A stretch of DNA of 64,000 nt from an uncultured Pseudohongiella sp. (GTDB lineage Bacteria; Pseudomonadota; Gammaproteobacteria; Pseudomonadales; Pseudohongiellaceae): positions 1,613,535-1,677,534 of the forward strand of contig OZ245938.1 in NCBI GenBank assembly GCA_965230125.1. Reading direction: 5' to 3'. The notes under the pieces are model-generated. The model saw only the letters and a program-made list of their open reading frames with translations. It was not told the origin of the DNA and searched no databases. Shown in pieces: positions 20,520 through 55,132 of the stretch (position 1 is the first letter of the stretch; each line of letters starts with the position of its first letter). Position numbers and translations under genes: made by a program.

Positions 20520-20551
20520 CTTATCCACAGCAGCGTGCGACGGTGGCGCTG

Positions 20552-21208: not shown

Positions 21209-21370
21209 AGCTCAATTAACTCGACGAGTTGAACTCGCTGTATTCTCAAAGAGAGGGTACGCCTATTTTTTTGAGGTGAACATATCCTTTGCAGCTTGTT
21301 GTCGATGTGCTGGGCTCAAGCACGGCTGAAAAGTATTCCGCAGTGAGCACAGCATCGTCCTGCCACCATG

Positions 21371-21769: not shown

Positions 21770-21813
21770 ACCAGCTATTCCTTGGAAAAAATGTGATACT
21801 TCGCTGTGGCTAC

Positions 21814-22308: not shown

Positions 22309-22428
22309 ATGGGATGCATTACGTTGCCAGAAACAAATCGGGCAAAGCTATCATTTCTCTAAGTAGTTTTATTTGTGAAATTGGTAACATTCGGTATCAA
22401 CAAGAAGGGCGTCTGTCGCGTAGAAACG

Positions 22429-23624: not shown

Positions 23625-23634
23625 TCTAGGCTGC

Positions 23635-24435: not shown

Positions 24436-24462
24436 GATACTAGCTGAGCTGCTCCATAAACG

Positions 24463-24480
24463 TTGTTGATACCAATTGAT
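24463..24480. repeat. 18-bp motif TTGTTGATACCAATTGAT, copy 1
   Basis: Exact 18-mer also present at 49069-49086. It contains the direct repeat TTGATAC-CAA-TTGATAC. Lies in the flhF-fleN spacer, 28-45 bp upstream of the fleN ATG. Confidence 0.5.
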
Positions 24481-24502
24481 ACAGGGGCGAAGTTGTTCTG
24501 CT

Positions 24503-25765: not shown

Positions 25766-25768
25766 AGC

Positions 25769-27886: not shown

Positions 27887-27966
27887 AAAAATACCTTGTA
27901 AAACAGTGAATTAAAATTATTTGGCCAAAGCCGCCAGGGGCCAGAAACCGTGTCTTGACTGGTAGT

Positions 27967-27982
27967 GGCAATTATCATGCCA
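27967..27982 (-). promoter_or_regulatory. candidate sigma54 (-24/-12) promoter for flhA
   Basis: The minus strand reads TGGCAT-GATAA-TTGCC, with GG and GC 12 nt apart, about 80 bp upstream of the flhA ATG. The element is near-palindromic, so the plus strand reads TGGCAA-TTATC-ATGCC. Confidence 0.5.
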
Positions 27983-28031
27983 GCAAAAAATGACACCCCT
28001 TTTGGCGCCGTGCTTAAAGGCTGTTTGGGCA

Positions 28032-30397: not shown

Positions 30398-31537
30398 ATG
30401 GGTGTTGATACCCTGTGCGGGAGGATGTCACTGCTCATGGTATTTGTTGGTGATACCAATTCAGCGAACCCACTGTTCAGGGTAGGCGGCGAGGGTGGTC
30501 CAGTGGCCCTGTTGCGGATCAGCAATGAGGCTGCGCGACAGCTCGGGCTTGATGATCAGCAGGTTGTCAAAGGGCTGATCGATTCCCGGTCGGGCACCAT
30601 CCGCCTCAGCACTGATAGCGCCTCGCTGGCATTTAATTACCGCCCCAGCGCGTATGCGCCCGCCGTTATCTGGTTCCGGGTTTCACAATCAGCTTATGGC
30701 GTCACTCTGAGACCCCTCCCGAGCCACCAATCTACCGATAGCGCCAGGCCGACAAGCTCAGCGTCACTGCCCGTTTCGGGTGACGCGATAGCGGACTTGT
30801 CGCGCCGACTGGTGCTGACTATGGCTTCACGACCGTCGCTGGCGTCTATTTGGTCATTGCTCGATAGCCAGCGCCAGCCAGCGAGCCAGGCGCATCAGAT
30901 CTTGCGGCAGGAATATCAGCGGGTGCAGCAGCAATTGCCGCAGGTCGCGGACCTTGACCTGGACGCGATTCGCAGCGCATTTACTGCTATGACAGCAGTG
31001 GCGGGAAGCGGCACAGCGCCTTCGCTACTGAAGATACTTTGGCAGGCGCTGATGAACAGGCGCCAGGTTGCCCACAGCAGTCTTGACAGCACGAATTTGT
31101 CTGAACTGATCAAGCCGCTACAGGAATATCAGGATAGCGCGCGGCTTGAGTCGCTTCTCAATCAGGATCAGGGGAGACTGGTGACGCGCTTTCCGCTTTT
31201 TTTTGCGGATGCGCCGCCAGTGGAAATCAGCCTTACCGGTCAAGGCAAGGGGCATCGGGAAGACGGCAGCGGCTGGCGACTTGATCTTGAGATGTTGCTT
31301 CTGGGCGATCAGCGGCTTTGGCTTAACTGTTTGTTCGACTCGGCGTGGGACGTACAGGCGACAGCCTGGACTGATAACCCAGATCTCGCCAGGGACCTGC
31401 GCGACAATGTCGGCGAACTCAGACACAATCTCGCCAGTTTTGGTTTAGAGCTGCGCTCATTGCAGGTGGTTGATCAGCCAAGGCCGTCGGGAACTGGCCT
31501 GCCGTTTCAGGGCGTGTTTGCAGCCGAGCGAGATTAA
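30398..31537 (+). CDS. FliK-like hook-length control family protein
   Basis: The C-terminal segment WRLDLEMLLLGDQRLWLNCLFDSAWDVQATAWTDNPDLARDLRDNVGELRHNLASFGLELRSLQV fits the Flg_hook (FliK C-terminal) pattern. The N-terminal part is Ser/Ala/Pro-rich. Confidence 0.55.
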   Translation: MGVDTLCGRMSLLMVFVGDTNSANPLFRVGGEGGPVALLRISNEAARQLGLDDQQVVKGLIDSRSGTIRLSTDSASLAFNYRPSAYAPAVIWFRVSQSAYGVTLRPLPSHQSTDSARPTSSASLPVSGDAIADLSRRLVLTMASRPSLASIWSLLDSQRQPASQAHQILRQEYQRVQQQLPQVADLDLDAIRSAFTAMTAVAGSGTAPSLLKILWQALMNRRQVAHSSLDSTNLSELIKPLQEYQDSARLESLLNQDQGRLVTRFPLFFADAPPVEISLTGQGKGHREDGSGWRLDLEMLLLGDQRLWLNCLFDSAWDVQATAWTDNPDLARDLRDNVGELRHNLASFGLELRSLQVVDQPRPSGTGLPFQGVFAAERD

Positions 31538-35764: not shown

Positions 35765-38683
35765 ATGTCATTTTATACTTCGTTGACTGGATTGAATGCG
35801 GCCACCACGCAGCTATCCGTAACTTCCAATAATATTGCCAACGCCGGAACGTCCGGTTTTAAACGGTCAACCGCAGACTTCGGCGATATTTTTGCGACAT
35901 CACCGCTGCAGAAATCCTCATCTGTGGTTGGTGCCGGTGTATCGCTTAAGGAGGTGCGCCAGGAATTCAGCCAAGGCAATATCGAGTTCTCCGCCAATTC
36001 TCTGGACCTGGCGATTACCGGAGACGGTTTTTTCGCGCTGGAAACGCCAGACGGCACCAAGGTGTTCACGCGCAATGGTGGGTTCATGCTCAATGAGCAG
36101 AATCAGATGGTCAACGCAGCCGGGCAGGCACTGATGTCGCTGCCAGTTGACTCCACCAATAAAGCGGATTTCAGCGAGCCACTTACTGCCTTGTCGATTC
36201 CACGCAATACGGTCTCGGAATTCCAGGCCACTACCGAAGTTGAATTGGGTCTTAACCTGCCTTCAGACGCCCAGCCGATTTCCCAGACATTCAATCCCAG
36301 CAAGCCGGAAACCTATCACAAGACTACATCCCTAACGGTATACGGAGCTTCTGGCTCATCGCATCTGGCGACGATTTACTATGCAAAAACCAAGAACGCC
36401 ACTGCTGATTCCCCGTTCAACAAATGGCAGACCCATGTGTACATTGATGAGCAGCCGGTAGAGCCAGCGCTGATTCAGGCGTCGGATAACGGCGATGAAT
36501 TTTTCGTCAACAAATATGGTGAAATCAAGTCTCGAACGGAGTTGTTGGAACTGCAGCGTACCAGCTCGGAAAGTGAAAAATACCTGATCACTACCGGTAC
36601 CCTTTACAAGAAGTATTCCTTTGACAGGTTGTCCACACCGGTTGATTCCACACCAGCAACTATTCCGTTGCCGATCCCGGAAGAATCGCCGTACATTGAT
36701 AACCTCAACTTGACTAACAATCAGGATGGTGTTGATTTTTCTAACGGCACAACTATCGCAGACGACGGCGCTGAAACCGCGACCGGCTTTACTCGAGCAG
36801 ATTTGACCAACATGTTTCAGGTATCGGTGGACGGCTCAGCCTTCGTTGAGGTAGGGCTGGAACACCTGGCGGGACGTAATGTGCAGCTGTCAGGCACGGA
36901 GCTGGCATTTGAGCTGAGCAATGTGCTCAATACCCGTTTCGGTGATGGTCGAAAATTCAATCTTTCTGAGGATGCTGCCAAGAGCCTTGAGCTGACCAGA
37001 ATTCTGGGGGATGCCGATCCGGTTACGCTGGCTATTGATCTGGGCGCCGTGATAGAGGCGGCCGAGGGCGTCTCGCTGTCGGAAAGCGGCGATATTGAGC
37101 CCGAGGCGCTGGCGTTTGCGCTGAACGATCATCTTTCCAATCAGGCTGATCCAAAATTCGACGATCTCACTGTCGAGTATGACGAGGCGAATCGCGGTTT
37201 TCGTTTTACCCAGAACGATGCCAATAACGTGACTGAGTTGTATCTGAGTGGCGGTGCCGCGCTGAACCCGGTGTTCGGGGTAAGCGCCTCTGCTGCCGCG
37301 GACGGCGAAACACCTGCTTACTATGGGAAATTACTTTCTCCACTTGATAACGATGATGATGTAGTGCTGTTGCGCAATGTGCTTCCCAACGGAGCGCAAT
37401 ACAGCACGGCCCGAGATCAACGCTATGGCATTGAGGTCACTTATTCCGATGGGCAGTTCCGTATTCAGAGCGGTACCACCGGCGACGAATCCAGTCTGCA
37501 ACTGCGGCTGAATACGAACGAGGCAGATGACGGCACGGTCAGTTTGACCGCAGCCTCAGCATTGGCGGCGAGTCTGTTCGGAATACCGGAGTCCGGCGCC
37601 ATCGTTGAGCCACAGACTTCGCAGATTGACAATCTCCCAACAGTTCGGGGTCAGCGTTCCGAGCCGGCGGTACTGGAGGGTAACCAGATGGGTGTGGACC
37701 CACGTAAATCCTTCTCGGTAACCGCGGCCAATCAGAATCTGACGGTAATTGTCGATGGAATTTCGGCGCAGATCAGCCTGACTCCAGGTCAATACTCAAT
37801 CGGCACCTTTACCCAGCATCTGCAGGATCAAATCAATCTGATGGCTGATAGCCTGGGTCGCACTGTGTCCGGGGTCAAGGTGGATTTTGATGACACCAGC
37901 GAAGCTCTGGTTATTACCGGCGCCACGGCGTCCAACGAATCCTTCATTCAGGTTGCGGGCCACTCCGACTGGGGGCTGGAAGATCTGGATGCGGTATTTG
38001 GTTCGACGTCCAACTATATCCAGCTCGAGCAGGATACCCAGGGAGCCAGCTCGGTTTATGTGATCCAGGATAACGACGGCAACTGGAATGAGACCACTGA
38101 CAAGGGTGATTTTGACGAGAACAATATTCCGTACTGGTCGCCCATCTTTCTTGACAAGGGCGAGCTTACTTTTGATACCAGTGGCTCGCTGGTGTCACCC
38201 ATTAGTGGCTCGAGACTAGAAAGCGAAAGTATTACCGGTACTGCGATCTCCATTGACTACGCCAACAGCACTCAGTTTAACAGTCCGTTTGCAGTGTTGA
38301 GTCAGACTCAGAACGGTGCGCCAGAAGGTGATCTGGTAGGAGTGAACATTGGTGACGATGGTCTGGTGGTGGCCAGTTATTCAAACGGTTCGCAGCGTTC
38401 TCTGGGAAAGATCATTGTGGCCAATTTTGCAACACCTCAGGGGCTGCGTCAGATCGGTGATTCCAGTTTTTATGAAACGTCCGAGTCCGGTGGAGCCGAC
38501 TACGGCGAGCCTGGATCGGCGGGCTTTGGTACCTTGCGTGCCGGCGCCCGGGAGCGCTCGAATGTCGATCTCACCGCCGAGTTGGTGGACCTGATTACCG
38601 CGCAGCGGAACTTCCAGGCTAATGCCAAGGCGATCGAGACCACCACCTCTATGACCCAGACCATTATCAATATTCGCGGATAA
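35765..38683 (+). CDS. flgE: flagellar hook protein FlgE, unusually large (972 aa)
   Basis: N-terminus MSFYTSLTGLNAATTQLSVTSNNIANAGTSGFKR. C-terminus SNVDLTAELVDLITAQRNFQANAKAIETTTSMTQTIINI. About 500 extra residues lie between the conserved ends. Confidence 0.9.
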   Translation: MSFYTSLTGLNAATTQLSVTSNNIANAGTSGFKRSTADFGDIFATSPLQKSSSVVGAGVSLKEVRQEFSQGNIEFSANSLDLAITGDGFFALETPDGTKVFTRNGGFMLNEQNQMVNAAGQALMSLPVDSTNKADFSEPLTALSIPRNTVSEFQATTEVELGLNLPSDAQPISQTFNPSKPETYHKTTSLTVYGASGSSHLATIYYAKTKNATADSPFNKWQTHVYIDEQPVEPALIQASDNGDEFFVNKYGEIKSRTELLELQRTSSESEKYLITTGTLYKKYSFDRLSTPVDSTPATIPLPIPEESPYIDNLNLTNNQDGVDFSNGTTIADDGAETATGFTRADLTNMFQVSVDGSAFVEVGLEHLAGRNVQLSGTELAFELSNVLNTRFGDGRKFNLSEDAAKSLELTRILGDADPVTLAIDLGAVIEAAEGVSLSESGDIEPEALAFALNDHLSNQADPKFDDLTVEYDEANRGFRFTQNDANNVTELYLSGGAALNPVFGVSASAAADGETPAYYGKLLSPLDNDDDVVLLRNVLPNGAQYSTARDQRYGIEVTYSDGQFRIQSGTTGDESSLQLRLNTNEADDGTVSLTAASALAASLFGIPESGAIVEPQTSQIDNLPTVRGQRSEPAVLEGNQMGVDPRKSFSVTAANQNLTVIVDGISAQISLTPGQYSIGTFTQHLQDQINLMADSLGRTVSGVKVDFDDTSEALVITGATASNESFIQVAGHSDWGLEDLDAVFGSTSNYIQLEQDTQGASSVYVIQDNDGNWNETTDKGDFDENNIPYWSPIFLDKGELTFDTSGSLVSPISGSRLESESITGTAISIDYANSTQFNSPFAVLSQTQNGAPEGDLVGVNIGDDGLVVASYSNGSQRSLGKIIVANFATPQGLRQIGDSSFYETSESGGADYGEPGSAGFGTLRAGARERSNVDLTAELVDLITAQRNFQANAKAIETTTSMTQTIINIRG

Positions 38684-42160: not shown

Positions 42161-42534
42161 TGTCTGACGTTATGCCAGCAGGCGGCAGCTTTTATGACCT
42201 GGCCGGACTGGCGGATCTACGCTCCCGAGCCACTCGCGCAAACGGAGGCGCAGATGCCGAGACCCGTCAGCGCGTGGCGGCAGAATTTGAGAGTGCGTTT
42301 ATGCAGTTAATGCTGCAGTCCATGAAGAAGGCGTCCGAACCCCTGAAAAGCGATTTGCTGCACAGTCAGTCCACGGACTTCGTAGACGATATGTTTATCA
42401 CCGAGGTGTCCCACTTTATCGCCATGCGTCAGTCACTGGGGGTTGGCAAGTGGATTGACGAGGCCATGGAAAACACCGGCATGCTGCCCGGCGAAGAGAC
42501 ATCCGGCGCAGAAGTGAGCATCGATCGTGGCTGA
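42160..42534 (+). CDS. flgJ: FlgJ rod-binding domain protein (no muramidase domain)
   Basis: The 124-aa protein carries only the rod-binding motif VAAEFESAFMQLMLQSMKKA. It overlaps the flgK start, so there is no room for a glucosaminidase domain. Confidence 0.8.
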   Translation: MSDVMPAGGSFYDLAGLADLRSRATRANGGADAETRQRVAAEFESAFMQLMLQSMKKASEPLKSDLLHSQSTDFVDDMFITEVSHFIAMRQSLGVGKWIDEAMENTGMLPGEETSGAEVSIDRG

Positions 42535-45451
42535 TCTTACCTCCATTGGCGCGTCCGCGACCCAGGTTTACCGGCAGGCTCTGTCCACGGTCAGTAATAA
42601 TATTGCCAACCTGAATACCGAGGGCTATTCCCGCCAGGAAGCAGTGACCACCGCCAATGCACCTGCCCAACAGGGAGTGCACTATATTGGCACCGGCGCG
42701 CGCCTGGTGGCAGTGCAGCGCAACTATGACCAGTTCGTGGAAAGCAACCTGCGTCAGGGCCAGAGTCAGCTCAGTGCGCAAAGTCCGATGGTGGATTACA
42801 GTAGTCGCATACTCGATATTATGGGCGACGACAGCAGTTCACTGACCAGTGCCCTCGACCGGTTTTTCGAAAGCGCGAACAAGCTGGCGGTGGACCCGGC
42901 CTCACGCGCACTCCGCGGCGGAGTGCTGTCGTCCGGTGATTATCTGGCCAGTCGGACGCGGGATATCGCCGGACAGCTGGCAGATGTAGAGGCGGACTCC
43001 GCCGCAGCGCTTGACTCGGCCGTGGGGCAGTTGAATACGCTCGCGCAACAACTGGCAAAGATTAACGTTGAACTGGCCAGGAATAACAGTCTTGACCGTC
43101 AGCCTCCCACCCTGCTTGATCAGCGCGACAAACTGCTGAGAGACTTGTCGGAACTGGCCAGTCTGGCGGTGGAAGAAGCAGCTAACGGCGAAGTGGCTGT
43201 GCGTTTGGCCGGTTCATCCAGCGGTTCCTGGCTGGTGTCCCGTGGCGATATGCGCCGTTTGGACGTGGCATTCTCGCCGCTGGATGCGGGGAACCATGCC
43301 TTTATCGTTGACGCCTATGGCGCCAATATCAACGTGGCACCACCTGGTGGCGGCGAACTGGGTGGCTTGGTGTCATTTCGGGGTGAGGTGCTTAATCCAC
43401 TAGTCCAGAACATAGACCGCTTTGCGGAATCACTTGCCGCCGCCGTTAATGAGATTCACAGTTCAGGAATCAACCTCGAAAATCAGACCGGTCTTGATCT
43501 GTTCACTATTACCCAGCAAGTCGTTGCGCTGGACGCGAGCGGACAACTTGCGAATGAGGTCAGCGTGTCGGCGAGCGTTAATGCCGACAAACTGCAATCA
43601 GCGGTTCAGATTACCTACACCGGCAATAATCAGTGGTTGGTACAGGATAGTGACGGTAACAGCAAGGGGCAGGTGGAGGGACGGGATGAAGACGGGCTTT
43701 ATCGTCTCACGCTGGACGGGCTTGATCTGCGTTTCGCGCAAACCCCGGAAGCCGGCAAGACCTATGCGCTAGCGGCTACGACCGGCTCCGCCCGGAATAT
43801 GCGGCTGGCACTGACGGATGCGGCGTCTATTGCCGCCGGAGGCCGGCTTATTGCGTCCGCCCAGCCCGACAATGAACGTAGCTACGATATCTCCTTCGAT
43901 TACTCCGTCGCTGCTCCAGACGTCACAACAGGTATCGAACTGGCTGACCTGAACGGGCGCAATGTGCAGGCCAGGGTGACTACGCAATGGCTCGAGCCCG
44001 CAGTTACAGTTGCGCCGGACCTTGAAGAATTCGTCGTCAGCTTTCAGCCGTCAGTGGATTCCGAACAACATTTGCAAGTGTTGAATGCCGATTTCGCCCA
44101 TCTGCTGGGAACGGAATTGAGTGCTGACGAGCAAGGGCAACTCGCGCAAACTGGCGCTTTTACCAGCAACACGCTTTATCAGGATGCCACCCGGAATGAT
44201 CCAAATCACGGTATTTTCTATGGCTTTCGCAGCGGTCAGCAGGCCTTCACTAACGCAATTCCGTTGCAGCAAAATCAAACCGGTGGCTCAATTGACCTGA
44301 TTGCCAGCGGCGCCCTGTCGCTGAATGGTCACGATCTCCCGACACTGCAGTTAGCGGATGACAAAACACTGAGCGCAGCCGATTTGGCGACGTGGTTAAA
44401 CAATGAGACTGCGAGCACCGGGGTAACCGCCAGCGCCGAAACCGTCATCCGTTTGTCCGTCGATACCCTGAACTACCAGCAGAGTCTGGTGCTGAACGGC
44501 GAGACGGTATTTAACGGACTGGCGGAAGGAGTCTCGGGAACGCCGCAGCAGCTCATTGCCGCGATTAATGGGGCGACAGACACAACCGGCGTGGAAGCCT
44601 GGCTGGGTACTGACGGCCAGCTTAATTTGCGCAATGTACCTACCCGTGCCGGCGCCAATATACAGGTGGGCGTTGCTGCTGGGGAAACAGCGAACTTGTT
44701 TGGCTGGAGCGACACCCTGGTGACCGGCCGTCTGCGCCTGGAGGCGTCCGATACAGCCGGGGCCATTGCCCTTGAGCTGAACGAGACCGGTCGCCCTGCA
44801 GATTTGTCACGTCTCGGTCTGGCCACGGGGGTGTACGGCGACGGCCGGCGCGACAGCCTGCTACAGGTTTTTGTCAGTGCTGATCAGGCTGGTGAGGTCG
44901 ACCTTGTTCTGCAGGCTGGCGATCTGCTTGCGCCACAAGCCCCGACTAACGATCGTAGCTACCGGATTGAGTTTCTCGACAATGATATCTACGAGCTCAA
45001 GACCGGTGCCGGCACACTGTTGCGCAAGGCTCGCTATGACCATGAGGCGGGAATCGCGCTGTTCGATGCACAGGTACGCTTTGATCTGCAGCCGCGGGCC
45101 GGAGAAGGGTTTGTCATTAATCCCAATATCGATGCCAGCGGCGACAATCGCAATCTACTGGCCATTAATGACCTTGCTGATCAGGCACTTATAGATGATA
45201 TGACCATTGCTCAATTCTATGTTGACCAGGTGAACAAGGTAGGCACCGTTTCCGAGCTGTCGCAGTTGTCAAAGGAAGCGCTTCAGGTCGTTTATGATCA
45301 GGCGGAGGAAACCCGGGCCCGGGTGTCCGGGGTCAGCCTCGATCAGGAAGCGGCGGACCTGATCAGGTTTCAACAGGCTTACCAGGCTGCCGCACAGGTG
45401 ATACAGGTATCAACCCGTTTGTTCGACACTATCCTTGGTGTGGGACGTTAG
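42527..45451 (+). CDS. flgK: hook-filament junction protein FlgK (HAP1), unusually large (974 aa)
   Basis: GTG start. N-terminus LSTVSNNIANLNTEGYSRQ. C-terminus SGVSLDQEAADLIRFQQAYQAAAQVIQVSTRLFDTIL. Confidence 0.9.
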   Translation: MADLTSIGASATQVYRQALSTVSNNIANLNTEGYSRQEAVTTANAPAQQGVHYIGTGARLVAVQRNYDQFVESNLRQGQSQLSAQSPMVDYSSRILDIMGDDSSSLTSALDRFFESANKLAVDPASRALRGGVLSSGDYLASRTRDIAGQLADVEADSAAALDSAVGQLNTLAQQLAKINVELARNNSLDRQPPTLLDQRDKLLRDLSELASLAVEEAANGEVAVRLAGSSSGSWLVSRGDMRRLDVAFSPLDAGNHAFIVDAYGANINVAPPGGGELGGLVSFRGEVLNPLVQNIDRFAESLAAAVNEIHSSGINLENQTGLDLFTITQQVVALDASGQLANEVSVSASVNADKLQSAVQITYTGNNQWLVQDSDGNSKGQVEGRDEDGLYRLTLDGLDLRFAQTPEAGKTYALAATTGSARNMRLALTDAASIAAGGRLIASAQPDNERSYDISFDYSVAAPDVTTGIELADLNGRNVQARVTTQWLEPAVTVAPDLEEFVVSFQPSVDSEQHLQVLNADFAHLLGTELSADEQGQLAQTGAFTSNTLYQDATRNDPNHGIFYGFRSGQQAFTNAIPLQQNQTGGSIDLIASGALSLNGHDLPTLQLADDKTLSAADLATWLNNETASTGVTASAETVIRLSVDTLNYQQSLVLNGETVFNGLAEGVSGTPQQLIAAINGATDTTGVEAWLGTDGQLNLRNVPTRAGANIQVGVAAGETANLFGWSDTLVTGRLRLEASDTAGAIALELNETGRPADLSRLGLATGVYGDGRRDSLLQVFVSADQAGEVDLVLQAGDLLAPQAPTNDRSYRIEFLDNDIYELKTGAGTLLRKARYDHEAGIALFDAQVRFDLQPRAGEGFVINPNIDASGDNRNLLAINDLADQALIDDMTIAQFYVDQVNKVGTVSELSQLSKEALQVVYDQAEETRARVSGVSLDQEAADLIRFQQAYQAAAQVIQVSTRLFDTILGVGR

Positions 45452-48452: not shown

Positions 48453-48986
48453 TTATTGGTCCAGAACGAGCAGGAAAGGATAGGTATTGCTACGAGATTC
48501 CCGGCAGGACAAATCGCCCTGATAGGTGTACACCGCGCAGCGAAAGCTGTCGTTATGCAGTGAGTCACTGGATGTCCAATGGTTGGCCACGTCAATGGCC
48601 GGAAAGACGAAGTGGTTGGTTGACGGGTTGCGACAGCTTTTCTCCTGGATTGCTCGCAGTTCCCGGTTAGTGGGCAGTCGCCACGGGCGTCCGCTGGCTG
48701 CGGAAAACTCGTCCGCATAGGCCATGGCTTCGTCCCAGGTGGAGCGCAACATTTCGCCGCGGCAACGACTGGCAGCGAACGTCATCCCAGCGGGGCAACG
48801 GTACCAGGTGGTTGCGGATTGCTGATGACGGGCCAGGCCATCGCCAGTGGCGATGAATCCGGGAGTTTGCGCGACGGTGAAGAAGTCTGCGCACGACGGC
48901 GGGGATTTGAAAAAATCACAGCCGGACAACAGGCAGGCCAGGCTGGCTAGCACTACAGTTTTGAGAACGTGGTGTCGATTGAACAT
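48453..48986 (-). CDS. lipoprotein with DUF1566 (Lcl C-terminal-like) domain
   Basis: Lipobox LLSGC. WYRCPAG...WDEAMAYA....RPWRLPTNRELRAI resembles the DUF1566 pattern. Start ATG 48986. Confidence 0.55.
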   Translation of the reverse strand: MFNRHHVLKTVVLASLACLLSGCDFFKSPPSCADFFTVAQTPGFIATGDGLARHQQSATTWYRCPAGMTFAASRCRGEMLRSTWDEAMAYADEFSAASGRPWRLPTNRELRAIQEKSCRNPSTNHFVFPAIDVANHWTSSDSLHNDSFRCAVYTYQGDLSCRESRSNTYPFLLVLDQ

Positions 48987-49068
48987 ATACGTGGTTGATT
49001 TCTTGCGCTTCGGTTCATTGCTGGGCAGGACTCTACTGGATTTGTCGCACAACGCAAGCAACAGACTA

Positions 49069-49220: not shown

Positions 49221-49976
49221 ATGGATCTCGCAACGATTATCGGTCTGCTTGGAGCATTCGGCATGATCGCCATGTCGATCAGCCAGCCCTCGGCATTTAT
49301 CGATACTCCCTCTATGCTCATCGTGGTTGCCGGCTCGATCATGGTGGTGCTGTTCCGCTCATCCCTTGGCGAGTTTCTGGGTGCGATCAAAGTGATGGGC
49401 AAGACCTTCAAGAACAAGCTGGATAAACCGGAAGATCTGGTTCACAAACTGGTTGAACTGGCCACTATCGCTCGCAAAGACGGCATGATTGCGCTGGAAG
49501 GGCAGGATATTCCCAACTCCTTTATGGCCAAGGGCATCAGCATGCTGGTGGATGGGTCGGATCCGGAAATGATCAAGAAGTCATTGGACCAGGACAATGC
49601 AGCCATGAAGCAACGTCACAAGATGGGGGCAGATATTTTCAGCGCCTGGGGTGAAATTGCCCCAGCCATGGGGATGATCGGCACGCTGATTGGTCTGGTG
49701 CAAATGCTGGGCAATATGGATGACCCAAAGGCGATCGGGCCGGCCATGGCGGTAGCGTTGTTGACAACAATGTACGGTGCGATTCTCGCTAACGTCATTT
49801 GCTTGCCAATCTCCATGAAACTGCGCAACCAGTCCGACCTTGAGGCGCATAACTGCGAACTGATCATCGAAGGTGTTCTGTTTATTCAGGGCGGCGGTAA
49901 TCCGCGTGTTCTTACCGACTACCTGGCCTCGTTTGTGGCACCCAAGGAGCGTGCCAAACTGGAAGCTGCAGCTTAG
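49221..49976 (+). CDS. pomA: flagellar stator channel protein MotA/PomA
   Basis: A 251-aa four-TM protein. IAPAMGMIGTLIGLVQML and GPAMAVALLTTMYGAILANVICLPI are the MotA/PomA TM3-TM4 motifs. Confidence 0.9.
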   Translation: MDLATIIGLLGAFGMIAMSISQPSAFIDTPSMLIVVAGSIMVVLFRSSLGEFLGAIKVMGKTFKNKLDKPEDLVHKLVELATIARKDGMIALEGQDIPNSFMAKGISMLVDGSDPEMIKKSLDQDNAAMKQRHKMGADIFSAWGEIAPAMGMIGTLIGLVQMLGNMDDPKAIGPAMAVALLTTMYGAILANVICLPISMKLRNQSDLEAHNCELIIEGVLFIQGGGNPRVLTDYLASFVAPKERAKLEAAA

Positions 49977-49998
49977 CCTCGCGGTGCATCACTGAGCT

Positions 49999-51270
49999 AT
50001 GGCCGAGAGTGACGCACAGGATCAGTCCGAAGCACCCCCGCCCGCCGATAAGGACACGGTGGCGGTCGCCCCTGAGGGTACAGGCCCCGGGGAAATCGAC
50101 GCTCAGGACGCTGCTATCGACAATCCGGAAGCGGCCGATGGCGGTGGCGCGCCGCTGGATGATTCTGGCGACGAGGAGTGTCCTCCCTGCAAAGGCGGGG
50201 CCCCAGGCTGGATGGCCACCTTTGCCGATATGGCCACACTGCTGATGGCCTTCTTCGTGCTGATTCTGTCCTTCTCCGATACCGAATTACCCAAGTTCGA
50301 GCAGATCAATGGCTCAATACAGGCCGCCTTTGGCATCAAAAAAATTATTCCCACCATTACTATCCCCATGGCGCGCAGCATCATTGTGGAGGACTTCACG
50401 CCAGCACTGGCCGAGCCCACGGTGGTTGACCGGCGGGAGCAACAGGCGGAAAACCCCAATGACCCCTTTGTGCAGAAAAAAACCGAGGAGTTCTCGGAGG
50501 ATTTTCCGATCGAGGAACAGTACCGCGTGGTCGAGGCAGAACTTGCAGAAGCGATCGAACAAGGGCAGGTCAGCGTGCGCATTGTCGATGAGCGTCTGGT
50601 AGTGGAGGTGACGTCTCCAGCCAGTGGCGGTGGCGACGGCCAGGCTGGAATGCAAAGCCGTGACGCCGGTAGCGTTGATCAGCCGCTACTGGACATTGCC
50701 GCGCAAGTGGTAGCGGTGCAGTCTCAGGTGACCGCTGAAGTACAGGTTTACGTCAATGCGCCGGGTGCCACCGACTCAGAGGTGAACGATAGCAGCAGTG
50801 CGCAGTCCGGGGCCGGAGAACCCAGTGCTCAGGAGCGTTTCGAGCGCATCTCTGTCGCGCTGAATACTGATATCGAACAGGGGCGGGTGGAAGTTGAACG
50901 CCAGGGAGATGCAGTGGTGGTCAGGCTGGCCTCTCAGGGGAGCTTTGTCTCCGGTAGCGCGGATTTGCAGAACCAGTTTCTGCCGCTGCTGACCCGGGTC
51001 GGTCAGAGTGTTGCTGAGGGTGGTGGTCGTATTAACGTGGAAGGACATACGGATAACATTCCTATCGCGTTCAGTGAGCAGTTCAATTCCAATTGGGATT
51101 TGTCGGCCGCGCGCGCCGCGTCTGTGGCGGACTTCTTTAACAATCAGCTGGTGATCGACGAATCGCGACTTGAGGTGCTCGGTTATGCCGATACCCGACC
51201 ATTGGCCTCCAACGCCAGTGCCGATGGCCGTTCGCAAAACCGTCGTATTGAAATCGTCGTGGATAACTAG
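49999..51270 (+). CDS. pomB: PomB/MotB-type stator protein, paralog 1 (423 aa)
   Basis: CPPCKGGAPGWMATFADMATLLMAFFVLILSFS is a Vibrio PomB-like Cys motif plus a TM segment with the conserved Asp. OmpA-like C-terminus EGHTDNIPI...SNWDLSAARAASV...NRRIEIVV. Long acidic N-terminus and linker. Confidence 0.85.
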   Translation: MAESDAQDQSEAPPPADKDTVAVAPEGTGPGEIDAQDAAIDNPEAADGGGAPLDDSGDEECPPCKGGAPGWMATFADMATLLMAFFVLILSFSDTELPKFEQINGSIQAAFGIKKIIPTITIPMARSIIVEDFTPALAEPTVVDRREQQAENPNDPFVQKKTEEFSEDFPIEEQYRVVEAELAEAIEQGQVSVRIVDERLVVEVTSPASGGGDGQAGMQSRDAGSVDQPLLDIAAQVVAVQSQVTAEVQVYVNAPGATDSEVNDSSSAQSGAGEPSAQERFERISVALNTDIEQGRVEVERQGDAVVVRLASQGSFVSGSADLQNQFLPLLTRVGQSVAEGGGRINVEGHTDNIPIAFSEQFNSNWDLSAARAASVADFFNNQLVIDESRLEVLGYADTRPLASNASADGRSQNRRIEIVVDN

Positions 51271-51290
51271 ATTGGATAGACAGGTGAACC

Positions 51291-52472
51291 ATGGCTGAGG
51301 AAGACGAACAGGAACTGGAGCTAGAGGAAGCGGAGCCGCCCGAGGAGTCGCCCCCGGAGGATTGCCCGCCGTGTAAGGCGGGGGCGCCTGCCTGGATGGC
51401 AACATTCGCCGACATGGCGACGCTGCTGATGGCGTTTTTCGTGCTCATCCTGTCTTTCGCCCACGTCAATGTGCCCAAGTACAAACAGGTCAGCGGATCC
51501 ATGCGCATGGCGTTTGGGGTGCAGACGCAGATACCGGTGATCGAGCCACCCAGCGCGGATAACATTATTGCCACCCAGTACCGCACTGCCAGGGTCGATC
51601 CCACACCGGTCCAGACAGTTGAAGAACAGAAAACCGAGCAGCCGCAACCGGAGGATGTCGAGCTGAGAAATGACACCGGGCCCGGTGAATCGGAGACCAA
51701 TGCTGCCGAACAGGCGTTGGAGCAGGCGCTGGCTGAGCAACTGGCGCAGGGCAGGGTGCGGATCAGCACAGCAGACAACAAGGTGCAGGTGGAAATTGTG
51801 GATCGCGGTCAGGAAGGACTGCGCGATTCTCCCGATGCAGGTGGTCCAAGGGGTCAGGTAGACCAGGATACGCTAGAGATCTATGCCCGGGTTGCTGCGG
51901 CGCAGACCGAAACCGATAGCCTGATCGAGGTAATCGATCCGCGTTTTGCCGAAACCACAGTTCAGCAGCAGAATGCGAGCGCCAGCGGTGCCGGTGCGGC
52001 GGTTGGCAGTTCACCGCTTGATGATCAGTACCAGCAGATCCGCGCCAATCTTTCGGAACAAATCCGTGACGGTCTCGCCGAGGTGGAGCGCGATGGCGAT
52101 CAGATCATTATCCGGCTCGCTGAGCAGGGCACCTTTGACAGCGGACAGGCAGAATTGAAACCGGAGTTTTTCACGCTGATCAATACGGTGGGTGCGTCAA
52201 TTTCCGGCACCCAGGGGCGGATCAGCGTCGAGGGGCACACCGATAATGTGCCCATCGGCTTTGGCAGTCGCTATCGATCGAACTGGGATTTGTCAGCAGC
52301 CCGCTCCGCCGCAGTAGCAGACTATCTGGTCAATAATGATTTTGTGCAGGCTGGTCGGGTCAGCATCAAGGGTTTTGCTGACTCACGACCGCTGGCAGAT
52401 AATGACAGTGCGATCGGCCGCGCCAGCAATCGCCGGATTGAAATCATTATCAATGGCTCTGGCAGCAGTTAA
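51291..52472 (+). CDS. pomB: PomB/MotB-type stator protein, paralog 2 (393 aa)
   Basis: CPPCKAGAPAWMATFADMATLLMAFFVLILSFAHVNVPKYKQVSGSMRMAFGVQTQ includes a plug region close to my recollection of Vibrio PomB. OmpA-like C-terminus EGHTDNVPI...SNWDLSAARSAAV...NRRIEIII. Confidence 0.85.
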   Translation: MAEEDEQELELEEAEPPEESPPEDCPPCKAGAPAWMATFADMATLLMAFFVLILSFAHVNVPKYKQVSGSMRMAFGVQTQIPVIEPPSADNIIATQYRTARVDPTPVQTVEEQKTEQPQPEDVELRNDTGPGESETNAAEQALEQALAEQLAQGRVRISTADNKVQVEIVDRGQEGLRDSPDAGGPRGQVDQDTLEIYARVAAAQTETDSLIEVIDPRFAETTVQQQNASASGAGAAVGSSPLDDQYQQIRANLSEQIRDGLAEVERDGDQIIIRLAEQGTFDSGQAELKPEFFTLINTVGASISGTQGRISVEGHTDNVPIGFGSRYRSNWDLSAARSAAVADYLVNNDFVQAGRVSIKGFADSRPLADNDSAIGRASNRRIEIIINGSGSS

Positions 52473-52502: not shown

Positions 52503-53273
52503 TCAGGCGGGGCAATCGCTCAGCCCGTCACCGAGACAGTTGTTGATAACAGCGTCCGCCTCGGCAACCTCATCATCTTCCAGCAAAATCACTGCCACCG
52601 CAGACACGTCGCCGGCATCAGTGAAACCGCTACGTTCGGCAATCGTGGCCCACACGTAGGCGCCAAACGGGTTCGATTCGTCCGCGCCTTCGCCCGCCTG
52701 CAGCATGTAGGCGTACATGAACTGGGCGTTCACCGAGCCTTGCCGAGCCGCCTTGAGAAACCAGCGCCGTGCTTCACGGTAGTCCAGGTCAACACCCTTG
52801 CCTTGCTGATAGGCCAGGCCCAGCATGTACTGCGCTGGCACGATGTCCTGTTCAGCAGCCTGGCGGAACCAGCGCACCGCCTCGCGCGGATTTTCCGCCA
52901 CCCCGTAACCGTTGTAGTACAGCAGGCCGATATTGTGCATGGCCTCCGGTAGGTCATTGTCGGCGGCCTGGCGATACCACCGCATGGCCGTGGTGTAGTT
53001 CTGTGCGACTCCCAGGCCTTCTTCATACATATGGCCAATATTGTTTTGCGCTTCGGGCACGCCGGACTCTGCCAGTGGCTGCCAGGCGCGAATGGCGGTG
53101 GCAAAATGGCCACGATCTTTGGCGGCCACACCGGCTTCCAGACTGGTTTGTTGAGCCTGGGCCGGCGCAGATAGTGTGCAGGCGACTGCCAACGCCAGTA
53201 GCAGTATGCGCGGCAGCGACCCGGGTTTGGCGCTGTTATCGGCAGGACCGAGAGCGACAATTATGTCAGGCAT
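52503..53273 (-). CDS. secreted Sel1-repeat (SLR) protein, MotX candidate
   Basis: At least four Sel1 repeats (AQNNIGHMYEEGLGVAQNYTTAMRWYRQAA, AMHNIGLLYYNGYGVAENPREAVRWFRQAA and others). Signal peptide present. Lies next to pomAB. ATG 53273 is preferred; GTG 53285 is the alternative. Confidence 0.75.
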   Translation of the reverse strand: MPDIIVALGPADNSAKPGSLPRILLLALAVACTLSAPAQAQQTSLEAGVAAKDRGHFATAIRAWQPLAESGVPEAQNNIGHMYEEGLGVAQNYTTAMRWYRQAADNDLPEAMHNIGLLYYNGYGVAENPREAVRWFRQAAEQDIVPAQYMLGLAYQQGKGVDLDYREARRWFLKAARQGSVNAQFMYAYMLQAGEGADESNPFGAYVWATIAERSGFTDAGDVSAVAVILLEDDEVAEADAVINNCLGDGLSDCPA

Positions 53274-53288
53274 AGAGTGGTTCACTTA

Positions 53289-54983
53289 TTAACTCCTTTC
53301 CAGTTGGCGCACGCTATTCTGAACTTGCAACACCGCCTGGAACAGATCACCTTCGGTAACTACCCCAAGCACGCGACGAGAATCGGCAGCCAGCACCGGG
53401 ATGCTCTCGCCGACAAAGCGGCTTACCTTGTGCATAACTTCCGCGAGGCTTTCCGACTCGTTAAAACACAGCGGGTTTCGGTCCAGGCAGCTGGCAATGG
53501 GTTCGCTGCCGGCATTGGCGCTGTCGAACACTGTGACTTTGCCCAGCAACTGTTGTTCGGAGTCGACGATATAGGCTTCAGTAAACGGTCCTTCAGCCAT
53601 GCGCCCCATCAATTCATGGCCGGTGAGACTGTCGGGTACACTCAGGTATCGCGCTCCCACGTAGTCGCCAACCCGACTTTTGTCCAGGGCCAGGGATTCG
53701 CGACCCATGCGCAGGTCGATGCCCCGGTCCAGCAGCTGTCGATCAAAATAGGATTGGCCGAACAGGCGGTGGGTGAGCAAGTTGCTGATAATGACCGCAA
53801 TCATTGCCGCCACGGCAAAGCCATAGGAGCCGGTCAACTCCAGCACAATTAGTACTGCTGAAATGGGCGCGCCGATCACGGCGGCGCTCACCGCGGCCAT
53901 GGCGGCCACGCTGATCACCTCATCCAGGCCGGTTATGCCGAAGCCAGCCAGTAGCTGCGCAACAATGGCGCCGGTGGCCACGCCCACAAACAGGGCCGGA
54001 GAAAACACGCCGCCGAATAAGCCAAAGCCGATACACAGGGCGGTCATCACCAGCTTGCCAACCAGCAGCGCCAGCAGCAGATTCAGGCTGGCATCACCAG
54101 CGATCATGCCGTTAATGCCGTCGATACCGATACCCAGGATCTGCGGCAGAAAAACACCGGTAGAACCACAGATCAACGCGGCCAGAACCGGCAGGGTATT
54201 GGCTGACAGTGGCAGGTGTTTGCCGAGCGCGGTGGCGCCGCGCAACGCCGTCATAAAACTGATGGCCACCAGTGCGGCCAGTGGGCCCAACAGCAGCAGA
54301 ATCGGTGCGAGCTGTACCAGCGGCGGCACGGACTGATGGATCTGGAAGGTGGTGCCGCTGCTGCTGAAAAACAGGCTGTCAAACGTACTGGCGCTGATGG
54401 CGGCTATAAAGATCGGAGCAATGGCCCGCGGGGAAAAATGGCGCAGGACTGCCTCATGAGCAAACACCACGCCAGCCAGTGGCGCGTTAAAGCCGGCAGA
54501 AATTGCTGCCGCCACGCCGCAACCCAGAAAAATATCCTGAGAGAGCAAGTTGCCAAACACCCGCCGCAAGGCGCAACCCACTGTGGCGCCAAAGTGGACC
54601 ACCGGTCCGTACTGGCCCACCGAAGCGCCGCCGGCAGCGGAGATGAATGCCGCCAGAGTGGAGCCCGCGCCCTGTTTGATATCCAGACGGTGCTGAACAT
54701 TGTGTGCGGCGTAGATGCTGTCTGCAGGACCAGCCCAGGCGCCAAGGCGCAGCAGCCTGCGCAACCCGATGACGGCCAGGGCAGCCAGCAGCAGAAAAAT
54801 GATCGGTGCCAGGGAATAACGGCCCCAGGGCAGGCCTACGCTCAACAATTGGCTGGACTCGCGCAACACCTTGGCGGATTGCACACCGAGTACGAACAGA
54901 TTGGCTACCACCGCCATCAGCAGACCGATAAAGCAGCCCACCAGCAGGATGATTAACAGTTCTTTGAATATCCGATATGACAT
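53289..54983 (-). CDS. ClC-family chloride channel/antiporter with C-terminal CBS pair
   Basis: Polytopic protein with selectivity-type segments GGASVGQYGPVVHFG and GVFSPALFVG, plus two CBS-like modules at the C-terminus. Start ATG 54983 (MSYRIFKELL...). Confidence 0.85.
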   Translation of the reverse strand: MSYRIFKELLIILLVGCFIGLLMAVVANLFVLGVQSAKVLRESSQLLSVGLPWGRYSLAPIIFLLLAALAVIGLRRLLRLGAWAGPADSIYAAHNVQHRLDIKQGAGSTLAAFISAAGGASVGQYGPVVHFGATVGCALRRVFGNLLSQDIFLGCGVAAAISAGFNAPLAGVVFAHEAVLRHFSPRAIAPIFIAAISASTFDSLFFSSSGTTFQIHQSVPPLVQLAPILLLLGPLAALVAISFMTALRGATALGKHLPLSANTLPVLAALICGSTGVFLPQILGIGIDGINGMIAGDASLNLLLALLVGKLVMTALCIGFGLFGGVFSPALFVGVATGAIVAQLLAGFGITGLDEVISVAAMAAVSAAVIGAPISAVLIVLELTGSYGFAVAAMIAVIISNLLTHRLFGQSYFDRQLLDRGIDLRMGRESLALDKSRVGDYVGARYLSVPDSLTGHELMGRMAEGPFTEAYIVDSEQQLLGKVTVFDSANAGSEPIASCLDRNPLCFNESESLAEVMHKVSRFVGESIPVLAADSRRVLGVVTEGDLFQAVLQVQNSVRQLERS

Positions 54984-55132
54984 CTTTGTTGCTTTGCAGC
55001 GCAGTCTGACCAGCACCCGATCGGTGGCATCTTTCCGCCGCCAGGGCGCGACTGCCGCGACGCTGGAGGTGCTGCAAGAAATCGATAAGAAGGCGCTCTA
55101 GACCGGCTCTGGCAAGGGGCAACAATAACCGA

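What the first reader, a model, noticed from the sequence alone, without database searches (positions are those of the whole stretch)
49221..52472. One pomA followed by two complete pomB paralogs
A single MotA/PomA gene is followed by two full-length B-subunit genes.
- Both carry the Vibrio PomB-like motif CPPCK-GAP-WMATFADMATLLMAFFVLILSF. The 22-residue TM segment, with the essential Asp, is identical at protein level.
- The DNA of that segment differs at many synonymous positions (compare tggatggccacctttgccgatatggccacactg with tggatggcaacattcgccgacatggcgacgctg). The duplication is therefore old and under purifying selection.
- The plug and linker regions differ: SFSDTELPKFEQINGSIQAAFGIKK versus SFAHVNVPKYKQVSGSMRMAFGVQTQ.
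- Both have long acidic linkers and intact OmpA-type peptidoglycan-binding domains.

Known dual-stator bacteria duplicate both A and B subunits. An A-B-B operon suggests alternative or mixed B subunits sharing one channel partner.
Basis: partly seen in the sequence, partly recalled or inferred. Interest (0 to 1): 0.65.

Follow-up and report, generated by a model that had tools for sequence, protein, structure and literature searches.

The report
One PomA, two PomB stator operon
This marine bacterium's flagellar motor operon encodes one channel subunit (PomA) followed by two intact, anciently duplicated anchor subunits (PomB1, PomB2); the layout is conserved in dozens of related marine species and has one published precedent (Aquifex), so it is real and moderately interesting but not a new kind of system.

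Summary
pomA (49221-49976), pomB1 (49999-51270) and pomB2 (51291-52472) lie 20-22 nt apart inside a polar-flagellum gene cluster of a Pseudohongiellaceae genome. Both B proteins have the CPPC motif, an identical 22-aa TM helix with the essential Asp, a plug and a PomB-type peptidoglycan-binding domain. They are 42% identical overall. In the TM segment 11 of 66 nt differ, all silently.

The interpretation needs two corrections.
- A one-A/two-B operon is already published for Aquifex aeolicus (motA/motB1/motB2).
- The layout is not peculiar to this genome. It occurs in about 55 GTDB species (Pseudohongiellaceae, Porticoccaceae/SAR92, Halieaceae and others).

First-position and second-position B genes form two separate clades, which fits one ancient tandem duplication. 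Both copies are under purifying selection (dN/dS 0.03-0.13), and no loss of either copy was seen.

Paralog-specific divergence lies in the plug and post-plug segments, not in the TM helix or the PG-binding domain. PomA keeps the Na+-selectivity threonines.

Most likely both B subunits are co-expressed and share the single PomA ring. Whether they form heterodimers or separate homodimeric units is untested. No second motA lies in the window, and the rest of the genome could not be searched.

The parts
49221..49976 (+). pomA: the single A (channel/rotor-contact) subunit, 251 aa
   Evidence: Pfam MotA_ExbB; NCBIfam PomA 330 bits (cutoff 341); full-length match to Vibrio PomA 8bri_A, E = 5e-79. The equivalents of Vibrio T158, T185 and T186 are present in MIGTLIGL and LLTTMYG.
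49999..51270 (+). pomB1: first B subunit, 423 aa; member of the 'first-position' clade
   Evidence: MotB_plug + OmpA; NF006508 263 bits (cutoff 259); matches Vibrio PomB 8zyv_A, E = 2e-53. Clade bootstrap 0.76; dN/dS 0.03-0.13.
51291..52472 (+). pomB2: second B subunit, 393 aa; member of the 'second-position' clade
   Evidence: MotB_plug + OmpA; NF006508 282 bits. Clade bootstrap 0.85; dN/dS 0.03-0.12. AGGTGA ribosome-binding site 6 nt upstream of the ATG.
50209..50274 (+). PomB1 TM helix (aa 71-92) with the ion-binding Asp77
   Evidence: Identical in protein to the B2 helix; 11 silent nt differences. The Asp is invariant in 129 of 129 readable family members.
51393..51458 (+). PomB2 TM helix (aa 35-56) with the ion-binding Asp41
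50275..50493 (+). PomB1 plug and post-plug segment (aa 93-165): the region where the paralogs differ most relative to their orthologs
   Evidence: Same-genome B1 vs B2 identity is 0.45 (plug) and 0.21 (post-plug), against 0.60-0.66 and 0.45-0.50 among orthologs. The only strict clade-discriminating site is B1 Q148 / B2 E112.
51459..51677 (+). PomB2 plug and post-plug segment (aa 57-129)
   Evidence: By the clade consensus strings, B2 is closer than B1 to the single-copy and Vibrio consensus here (FGVQ..P.VEpP).
50506..50757 (+). PomB1 extra periplasmic module (aa 170-253), predicted alpha-beta-beta-alpha-beta fold inside the 'linker'
   Evidence: AlphaFold2 block-mean pLDDT about 87-91 over the modelled elements (low in the 209-220 loop). 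Weak internal repeat of the start of PomBc (aa 172-209 vs 278-315, 32% identity, E = 0.006). Absent from Vibrio PomB.
51687..51935 (+). PomB2 extra periplasmic module (aa 133-215)
   Evidence: AlphaFold2 gives the same order of secondary-structure elements, with block-mean pLDDT about 64-82 and a low-confidence loop at 173-188.
50821..51267 (+). PomB1 PomBc/OmpA-like peptidoglycan-binding domain (aa 275-423)
   Evidence: Foldseek to Vibrio PomBc 3wpw_A: target-normalised TM-score 0.88, rmsd 1.9 A. GHTDN and NRRIE motifs are conserved.
52008..52469 (+). PomB2 PomBc/OmpA-like peptidoglycan-binding domain (aa 240-393)
   Evidence: Pfam OmpA 1.5e-15; GHTDN and NRRIE conserved; AlphaFold2 block-mean pLDDT about 72-93.
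48453..49061 (-). Context: Lcl_C-domain lipoprotein gene, divergent from pomA, syntenic in essentially all related loci
   Evidence: Pfam Lcl_C 2.5e-16; present upstream of pomA in the loci.
52503..53285 (-). Context: secreted Sel1-repeat protein gene, convergent with pomB2, syntenic in related loci. MotX-like at best.
   Evidence: Pfam Sel1 2.3e-37. MotX scores only about 30-34 bits (NCBIfam cutoff 330). Co-oriented directly behind pomB in some single-B genomes.

Best explanation
pomA-pomB1-pomB2 is a genuine three-gene stator operon of a Vibrio-type, probably Na+-driven, polar flagellar motor.

Shown
- One tandem duplication of pomB happened long ago, in an ancestor of several marine gammaproteobacterial families. 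Gene order has been kept ever since.
- Both copies have stayed under purifying selection, with every element a working B subunit needs: the TM helix with the ion-binding Asp, the plug, and the PomB-type peptidoglycan-binding domain.
- What distinguishes B1 from B2 is mainly the plug and post-plug segment, not the ion pathway or the cell-wall anchor.

Inferred
- The genes are 20-22 nt apart here (median 18 nt across 53 relatives, sometimes overlapping), so the two B proteins are made together from one mRNA.
- Both insert into the same PomA pentamer. Their membrane helices are identical, so the membrane part cannot tell them apart.
- The plug/post-plug segment is the one that, in Vibrio PomB, keeps the channel shut until the unit docks at the motor (PMC10374538). 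The motor would therefore get B chains with two gating or activation characters on one common torque generator.

Unresolved
- Whether the B pair in a unit is B1-B2, B1-B1 or B2-B2. I consider units containing heterodimers somewhat more likely than strictly separate homodimeric units (about 0.45 vs 0.35 within this explanation).
For: - Gene structure and families.
- Full-length similarity to Vibrio PomA and PomB structures.
- Na+-signature threonines are present in PomA. PMC10374538 reports them as conserved in all Na+-driven stators, with T158 and T185 replaced by Ala in H+-driven ones.
- Flagellar cluster context (flhAFG, fliA, flgA-L, fliD, flagellin, fliFG), with no other MotA/MotB in 64 kb.
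- A-B-B order in about 55 species loci; each locus has only one pomA.
- Position-1 and position-2 clades with NJ bootstrap 0.76 and 0.85.
- Asp invariant in 129/129 readable sequences; CPxC, plug, GHTDN and NRRIE conserved in both clades.
- dN/dS 0.03-0.13 for both copies.
- Silent divergence in the TM segment rules out recent gene conversion.
- Tight intergenic spacing.
- Divergence concentrated in plug and post-plug.
- No true loss of either copy; the apparent exceptions are a masked run of N and a 1-nt assembly deletion.
- Aquifex precedent, where chimeric B proteins carrying either B's N-terminal TM region worked with the one MotA in E. coli: PMC4525482.
Against: - There is no expression, proteomic or genetic data.
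- No promoter was identified upstream of pomA in this window. A sigma-28-like motif was found in only 18 of 75 related loci, and not here.
- The rest of the roughly 4.1-Mb genome could not be searched for a second motA.
- Na+ use is inferred from three residues and overall similarity to PomA, and the NCBIfam PomA equivalog score is just under its cutoff (330 vs 341).
- No MotY was found in the window, and the Sel1 neighbour is not demonstrably MotX.
- NJ trees with p-distance correction are crude. The root, and the position of the single-B lineages, are unresolved.
- The best-80 sampling was ranked by similarity to B1, which biases the species set.
Confidence: 0.78

Rival explanations
1. One of the two B proteins is not a torque-generating subunit. 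It would be a regulator, decoy or brake that competes for PomA or for motor slots, or it is effectively dispensable.
For: B1 evolves somewhat faster than B2 in several pairs (for example 81% vs 88% identity between the window and L049; 83% vs 92% between L023 and L028). B1's plug and post-plug have drifted further from the single-copy and Vibrio consensus than B2's.
Against: Both copies keep the invariant Asp, the plug, and the PG-binding motifs. dN/dS values are equally low. Neither copy was lost in about 55 species. A pure decoy would not need both an intact ion-binding Asp and an intact PG anchor.
Confidence: 0.1
2. One B pairs with a MotA-like protein encoded elsewhere in the genome. The system would then be an ordinary dual stator whose second A gene is simply unlinked.
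For: The genome outside the 64-kb window could not be examined. Many Gammaproteobacteria do carry extra mot gene sets.
Against: The two TM helices are identical to each other and nearly invariant family-wide, as expected if both contact the same A ring. Within genomes, the single variable TM position (I/L) agrees between B1 and B2 in 41 of 54 pairs and is never I in B1 with L in B2; this is not corrected for phylogeny. No second motA lies in the window or in any 13-kb locus. The genes are tightly spaced behind pomA.
Confidence: 0.07
3. Artefact: an assembly duplication or a recent, strain-specific tandem duplication with no functional meaning.
For: None beyond the fact that the source is probably a metagenome-derived genome.
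Against: The copies are only 42% identical. The same arrangement appears in independent assemblies and in isolates such as HTCC2207 and SAR92 H921. The two copies fall into orthologous clades.
Confidence: 0.01

Closest known systems
Aquifex aeolicus motA/motB1/motB2 operon (Takekawa et al. 2015, Sci Rep 5:12711; PMC4525482)
   Same: One A gene is followed by two B genes in one operon. The TM region is near-identical between the two B proteins (97% in Aquifex, 94-100% here) and the periplasmic part is divergent. Na+-type coupling was shown for Aquifex chimeras and is inferred here.
   Different: The phylum is different and the duplication is almost certainly independent: here B1, B2 and the single-copy relatives are all closer to each other than to Vibrio PomB. 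No Aquifex sequence was included, so this is an inference. In Aquifex the whole periplasmic region is only 23% identical. Here the PG-binding domain stays about 48-54% identical and the paralog-specific change sits in the plug and post-plug. Here the arrangement is conserved across several families and about 55 species, and the cytoplasmic N-terminal tails differ in length (about 60 vs 24 aa).
Vibrio alginolyticus PomAB Na+-driven polar stator (PDB 8bri, 8zyv, 3wpw)
   Same: PomA is similar over its full length and carries the T158/T185/T186 equivalents. PomB has the CPPxx-TM-Asp-plug N-terminus and a PomBc fold (target-normalised TM-score 0.88). The operon lies in a polar flagellum cluster with flhF/flhG.
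   Different: Vibrio has a single pomB of 315 aa. Here there are two B genes of about 400 aa, each with an extra folded module of about 85 aa between plug and PomBc. MotX and MotY partners were not identified with confidence.
Dual-stator systems that duplicate both subunits (Pseudomonas MotAB/MotCD, Shewanella PomAB/MotAB, Aeromonas PomAB/PomA2B2, B. subtilis MotAB/MotPS)
   Same: More than one kind of B subunit is available to a single flagellar motor, which could broaden the range of operating conditions.
   Different: Those systems have separate A subunits, and their gene sets are described as distinct pairs (for Aeromonas, two sets of redundant, non-exchangeable proteins: PMC4960245). That they are usually separately regulated operons is my own knowledge, not checked here. 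In this locus one A is shared and the two B genes are obligatorily co-transcribed, so any differential use must be post-transcriptional.

Membership tests
Flagellar stator MotAB/PomAB (5:2 ion-driven rotary unit) | A subunit of the MotA/ExbB family with full-length similarity to flagellar MotA/PomA | tested here: met
   Pfam PF01618 4e-30; 8bri_A PomA E = 5e-79 over residues 1-245.
Flagellar stator MotAB/PomAB (5:2 ion-driven rotary unit) | B subunit with a single N-terminal TM helix carrying the conserved Asp, a plug, and a C-terminal OmpA-like PG-binding domain | tested here: met
   Met for both B1 and B2: MotB_plug + OmpA; Asp77/Asp41, with the Asp invariant in 129/129; B1 C-terminal domain superposes on PomBc 3wpw at target-normalised TM-score 0.88.
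Flagellar stator MotAB/PomAB (5:2 ion-driven rotary unit) | Encoded with flagellar genes and used by a flagellar motor | tested here: met
   The operon lies between fliD and flagellin/fliF/fliG in a polar flagellar cluster. Actual use by the motor is inferred.
Na+-driven PomAB subtype | PomA threonines equivalent to Vibrio T158, T185 and T186 (T158 and T185 are Ala in H+ stators) | tested here: met
   MIGTLIGL and LLTTMYG align with Vibrio MIGTLVGL and LLTTLYG. The criterion comes from PMC10374538.
Na+-driven PomAB subtype | Passes the curated equivalog/subfamily models | tested here: inconclusive
   PomA scores 330.3 bits against a cutoff of 341 (just below). B1 scores 262.8 and B2 282.4 against a cutoff of 259 for NF006508, a subfamily model named 'MotB family protein'.
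Na+-driven PomAB subtype | Na+-dependent, phenamil-sensitive rotation | not testable with these tools
   Needs swimming assays.
Na+-driven PomAB subtype | T-ring partners MotX and MotY | tested here: inconclusive
   The adjacent Sel1-repeat protein scores only 30-34 bits against MotX, versus up to 277 bits against generic Sel1 proteins. No further B-subunit/OmpA-domain relative was found in the window by phmmer with B1 and B2 as queries; MotY itself was not used as a query. The rest of the genome was not searched.
One-A/two-B stator operon (Aquifex motA/motB1/motB2 type) | A single A gene followed by two complete B genes in one transcription unit | tested here: met
   Gaps are 22 and 20 nt here; the median B1-B2 gap is 18 nt in 53 loci. 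Co-transcription is inferred from spacing.
One-A/two-B stator operon (Aquifex motA/motB1/motB2 type) | Near-identical TM region and divergent periplasmic region between the two B proteins | tested here: met
   CPxC+TM 0.94; plug 0.35; post-plug 0.28; extra module 0.25; PomBc 0.48 identity in the window pair.
One-A/two-B stator operon (Aquifex motA/motB1/motB2 type) | Descent from the same duplication event as the Aquifex pair | not tested
   No Aquifex sequences were available. Independence is inferred because B1, B2 and the single-B forms are all closer to each other (0.66-0.83) than to Vibrio PomB (0.98-1.11).
Classical dual-stator system (two A and two B) | A second A subunit dedicated to the second B | tested here: not met
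   No second MotA-like ORF in the 64-kb window or in any of 78 related loci of up to 13 kb. A genome-wide check was not possible.

The most novel reading that the evidence does not exclude
The stator unit of these bacteria is an obligate heteromer, PomA5-PomB1-PomB2. The two B chains sit in structurally non-equivalent positions inside the five-fold A ring, and here they would be two different proteins. They would share an identical membrane helix but have specialised plug and post-plug segments, for example one chain governing plug release or activation and the other docking. That would be the first natural heterodimeric B core in a flagellar stator. It would explain why both genes are kept, in fixed order and tightly coupled, in every A-B-B species examined.
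Probability: 0.3. Interest if true: 0.7.

Novelty: new member of a known kind. Interest (0 to 1): 0.42.

Why it matters
Stator units are PomA5PomB2 or MotA5MotB2 rotary motors in which the two B chains occupy non-equivalent positions (PMC10374538). All solved units found in my PDB searches have two copies of one B protein.

A one-A/two-B operon maintained by selection in abundant marine bacterioplankton (SAR92/Porticoccaceae, Halieaceae, Pseudohongiellaceae) is a natural system for two questions. Can B dimers be heteromeric? What do the plug and post-plug segments contribute to gating and to load- or condition-dependent stator recruitment? Cultured A-B-B strains exist (HTCC2207, SAR92 H921).

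It also exposes a blind spot in surveys. A 2025 stator survey took only the gene immediately downstream of A as the B subunit (PMC12505986), so it would miss such operons.

The practical impact is modest. The parts are ordinary PomAB parts, and the architecture has an Aquifex precedent whose in-vivo meaning is also unknown.

Tried and rejected
- Recent gene conversion or an assembly artefact as the cause of the identical TM segment. Rejected: 11 silent differences in 66 nt, and orthologous clades.
- Loss or pseudogenisation of one paralog in some lineages. The apparent cases were a 1-nt deletion in one of four sibling assemblies (L001), a masked run of N (L046), and N-terminal extensions or different start calls (L036, L073).
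- The Sel1 neighbour as MotX. Only about 30 bits to MotX against up to 277 bits to generic Sel1 proteins, so not accepted.
- The Lcl_C lipoprotein against the PDB by sequence: no hit.
- A sigma-28 promoter upstream of pomA. Found in 18 of 75 related loci but not in the window. The sigma-70 and terminator scans were at shuffle level.
- Rooting the B tree with Vibrio PomB, to decide whether single-B lineages are ancestral or secondary losses. Unresolved: best bootstrap 0.37.
- Clade-discriminating sites as a clue to a heterodimer interface. Only one strict site was found (Q148/E112).
- Foldseek of the full B1 model. It returned only OmpA-like and PomBc hits and was uninformative about the extra module.
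- Literature searches for PomB1/PomB2, for orphan, second or additional motB, and for pomA/pomB together with these taxa. Nothing described this arrangement outside Aquifex. The library lacks most subscription journals.
- A genome-wide search for a second motA was not possible.


Full report

Yes. Three same-strand ORFs sit at the stated coordinates:
- pomA, 49221-49976, 251 aa
- pomB1, 49999-51270, 423 aa
- pomB2, 51291-52472, 393 aa

The gaps between them are 22 and 20 nt.

PomA belongs to Pfam MotA_ExbB. It scores 330 bits on the NCBIfam PomA equivalog (cutoff 341). It aligns over its full length with Vibrio PomA from the cryo-EM structures (E = 5e-79).

Both B proteins contain MotB_plug and OmpA domains. 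Both exceed the cutoff of NCBIfam NF006508, a subfamily model named 'MotB family protein'. B1 aligns with Vibrio PomB at both ends.

B1 and B2 are 42% identical over 369 aa (E = 8e-90).

The 22-residue helix WMATFADMATLLMAFFVLILSF is identical in the two proteins. Its DNA differs at 11 of 66 positions, all silent, touching 11 of the 18 codons that can vary. The quoted plug sequences and the acidic character of the region between plug and PG-binding domain are also correct.

**2. Context**

The window is a polar-flagellum gene cluster. It contains flhA, flhF, a MinD/FlhG-type ATPase, fliA, flgA, flgD-L, fliD, flaG, a flagellin, sigma-54 activators, fliF and fliG.

There is no other MotA- or MotB-like ORF in the 64 kb.

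The nearest database proteins are labelled Pseudohongiellaceae. B2 is found identically on a 4.11-Mb contig.

PomA retains the equivalents of Vibrio T158, T185 and T186. PMC10374538 reports these as conserved in all Na+-driven stators, with T158 and T185 replaced by Ala in H+-driven ones. A Na+-coupled motor is therefore the likely reading, though it is inferred.

**3. How widespread is the layout, and how old?**

A pattern scan of one genome per GTDB species returned 78 loci. I classified them with phmmer.
- The order Lcl_C(-), pomA, B, B recurs in about 55 species. These include Pseudohongiellaceae, Porticoccaceae/SAR92 (with isolates HTCC2207 and H921), Halieaceae and the K189A clade. Metagenomic contigs of distant relatives show it too.
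- About 17 species have a single B: Litoricola, Litorivicinus, HIMB30 and several Burkholderiales.

In a neighbour-joining tree of 129 B proteins, every first-position gene falls in one clade (bootstrap 0.76). Every second-position gene falls in another (0.85). The single-copy genes lie outside both.

All three groups are closer to each other than to Vibrio PomB. This points to one tandem duplication within this gammaproteobacterial PomB lineage, with gene order fixed afterwards. The root, and hence whether single-B lineages are ancestral or lost a copy, is unresolved.

**4. Are both copies functional?**

- dN/dS is 0.03-0.13 for B1, 0.03-0.12 for B2 and 0.008-0.08 for PomA, in all pairs where dS is not saturated.
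- The Asp is invariant in 129 of 129 readable sequences. The CPxC motif, the plug, GHTDN and NRRIE are conserved in both clades.
- Apparent exceptions were artefacts: a 1-nt deletion in one of four sibling assemblies, a masked run of N, and N-terminal extensions or different start calls.
- So no loss of either paralog was seen. The species set was chosen by similarity to B1, which is a sampling bias.

**5. Where do the paralogs differ?**

| Region (B1 numbering) | B1 vs B2, same genome | Among B1 orthologs | Among B2 orthologs |
|---|---|---|---|
| CPxC + TM (61-92) | 0.93 | 0.89 | 0.90 |
| Plug (93-115) | 0.45 | 0.60 | 0.66 |
| Post-plug (116-165) | 0.21 | 0.45 | 0.50 |
| PomBc/OmpA (275-423) | 0.54 | 0.58 | 0.59 |

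All values are mean fractional identity.

The identity of each paralog is therefore written mainly in the plug and post-plug segments. In Vibrio this part keeps the channel closed until the unit engages the motor (PMC10374538).

By the clade consensus strings, B2 resembles the single-copy and Vibrio consensus there more than B1 does.

The TM helix is nearly invariant in the whole family. Its identity between B1 and B2 is family-wide constraint, which is what one expects if both contact the same PomA ring.

**6. An additional finding about the 'linker'**

These B proteins are about 100 residues longer than Vibrio PomB. The extra sequence lies between plug and PomBc.

AlphaFold2 predicts a folded alpha-beta-beta-alpha-beta module there:
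- B1 aa 170-253, block-mean pLDDT about 87-91 over the modelled elements, with a low-confidence loop at 209-220
- B2 aa 133-215, block-mean pLDDT about 64-82, with a low-confidence loop at 173-188

Its first helix-hairpin weakly repeats the start of PomBc (32% identity over 38 aa, E = 0.006).

Single-copy relatives are of similar length (median 415 aa), so the long linker predates the duplication.

The C-terminal domain of B1 superposes on Vibrio PomBc (target-normalised TM-score 0.88).

**7. Mechanism**

Shown:
- one A gene and two intact, constrained B genes
- tight spacing: median 18 nt, range -8 to 65, in 53 genomes
- identical membrane helices

Inferred:
- The three genes are co-transcribed.
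- Both B proteins are made together and both insert into PomA pentamers. Any functional difference arises after translation, from the plug/post-plug segment and perhaps the cytoplasmic tails (about 60 vs 24 aa).

The membrane part cannot discriminate B1 from B2. Mixed B1-B2 dimers should therefore form unless the periplasmic domains enforce homodimers. Strict co-retention of both genes also fits a need for both.

I rate the core claim (two working B subunits sharing one PomA) at 0.78. Within it, I put units containing heterodimers at about 0.45 and strictly separate homodimeric units at about 0.35.

Rivals:
- one copy is a non-motor regulator or is dispensable (0.10)
- one copy pairs with an unlinked motA (0.07; untestable here)
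- artefact (0.01; refuted)

**8. Comparison with what is known**

Aquifex aeolicus has a motA/motB1/motB2 operon with 97% TM identity and 23% periplasmic identity. Chimeric B proteins carrying either B's N-terminal TM region worked with the one MotA in E. coli (PMC4525482).

The present case is best filed as a second, almost certainly independent instance of that architecture, within the Vibrio-type PomAB family.

It differs from the classical dual-stator systems, such as Aeromonas PomAB/PomA2B2, in sharing the A subunit and in obligatory co-expression.

I found no paper describing this arrangement in these taxa. A 2025 stator survey defined B as the gene immediately downstream of A, so it would have missed it. 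The library lacks most subscription journals, so absence of a report is weak evidence.

**9. Verdict**

Novelty: a new member of a known but barely studied kind.

Interest is moderate (0.42). The parts are ordinary and the layout has a precedent. However, it is conserved by selection across abundant marine clades that include cultured strains. That makes the question of whether a stator can have a heterodimeric B core experimentally approachable.

Noticed in passing
window 48453-49061 (-); e.g. L001 4265-4888, L004 4567-5124, and nearly all of L005-L082: An Lcl_C (DUF1566-type) lipoprotein gene (lipobox LSGC) sits divergently upstream of pomA in essentially every related locus that has sequence there, in both Gammaproteobacteria and Burkholderiales. 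Such strict synteny suggests an undescribed motor-associated periplasmic component. It has no sequence match in the PDB.
   Followed up: partly
window 52503-53285 (-); L019, L020, L029, L035, L037, L038, L041 (+ strand, directly after pomB): A secreted Sel1-repeat protein is conserved next to the stator operon. In some single-B genomes it is co-oriented immediately behind pomB. Similarity to Vibrio MotX is only about 30-34 bits, against up to 277 bits to generic Sel1 proteins. It may be a MotX analogue, but it is not demonstrably MotX.
   Followed up: partly
window 50506-50757 (B1 aa 170-253) and 51687-51935 (B2 aa 133-215): The 'acidic linker' of these PomB proteins contains a predicted folded alpha-beta-beta-alpha-beta module (block-mean pLDDT up to about 90) that weakly repeats the N-terminal half of PomBc. 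It is absent from Vibrio PomB. Single-B relatives have similar lengths, so it predates the duplication.
   Followed up: partly
window 35765-38683 (+) and 42527-45451 (+): The hook protein FlgE (972 aa) and the hook-filament junction protein FlgK (974 aa) look very large, presumably through big inserted domains.
   Followed up: no
window 53289-55016 (-); L001-L003 about 11112-12837: A ClC-type chloride channel/exchanger gene lies next to the Sel1 gene, both here and in the distantly related contigs L001-L003. This synteny with the flagellar region is conserved and unexplained.
   Followed up: no
L050, L053, L058, L065, L066, L068, L071, L081, L082: Burkholderiales (betaproteobacterial) genomes, including isolate MOLA814, carry this gammaproteobacterial-type Lcl_C/pomA/pomB locus with a single B of about 410-450 aa. 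This suggests horizontal transfer of the stator locus.
   Followed up: no
window 28714-29886 (+) and 30398-31537 (+): Two ORFs of about 380-390 aa inside the flagellar cluster, near flgA, have no Pfam match. They could be uncharacterised basal-body accessory proteins.
   Followed up: no
B1 aa 89 / B2 aa 53 (window 50263-50265 and 51447-51449), across 54 genomes: The only variable position of the TM helix (Ile/Leu) agrees between B1 and B2 of the same genome in 41 of 54 pairs, and the combination B1 = Ile with B2 = Leu never occurs (Fisher p = 2e-6, not corrected for phylogeny). This could reflect co-adaptation to the shared PomA.
   Followed up: partly
window 20001-28000: GC content falls to 0.48-0.52 across 20-28 kb, which includes flhA/flhF/flhG/fliA, compared with 0.57-0.59 in most of the window.
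   Followed up: no
L030, L033, L034, L036, L039 (Halieaceae), B1 genes: Halieaceae B1 proteins reach about 450-510 aa because of a long, highly acidic cytoplasmic N-terminal extension, seen directly in L036. B2 in the same genomes is mostly about 420 aa (469 aa in L030).
   Followed up: no
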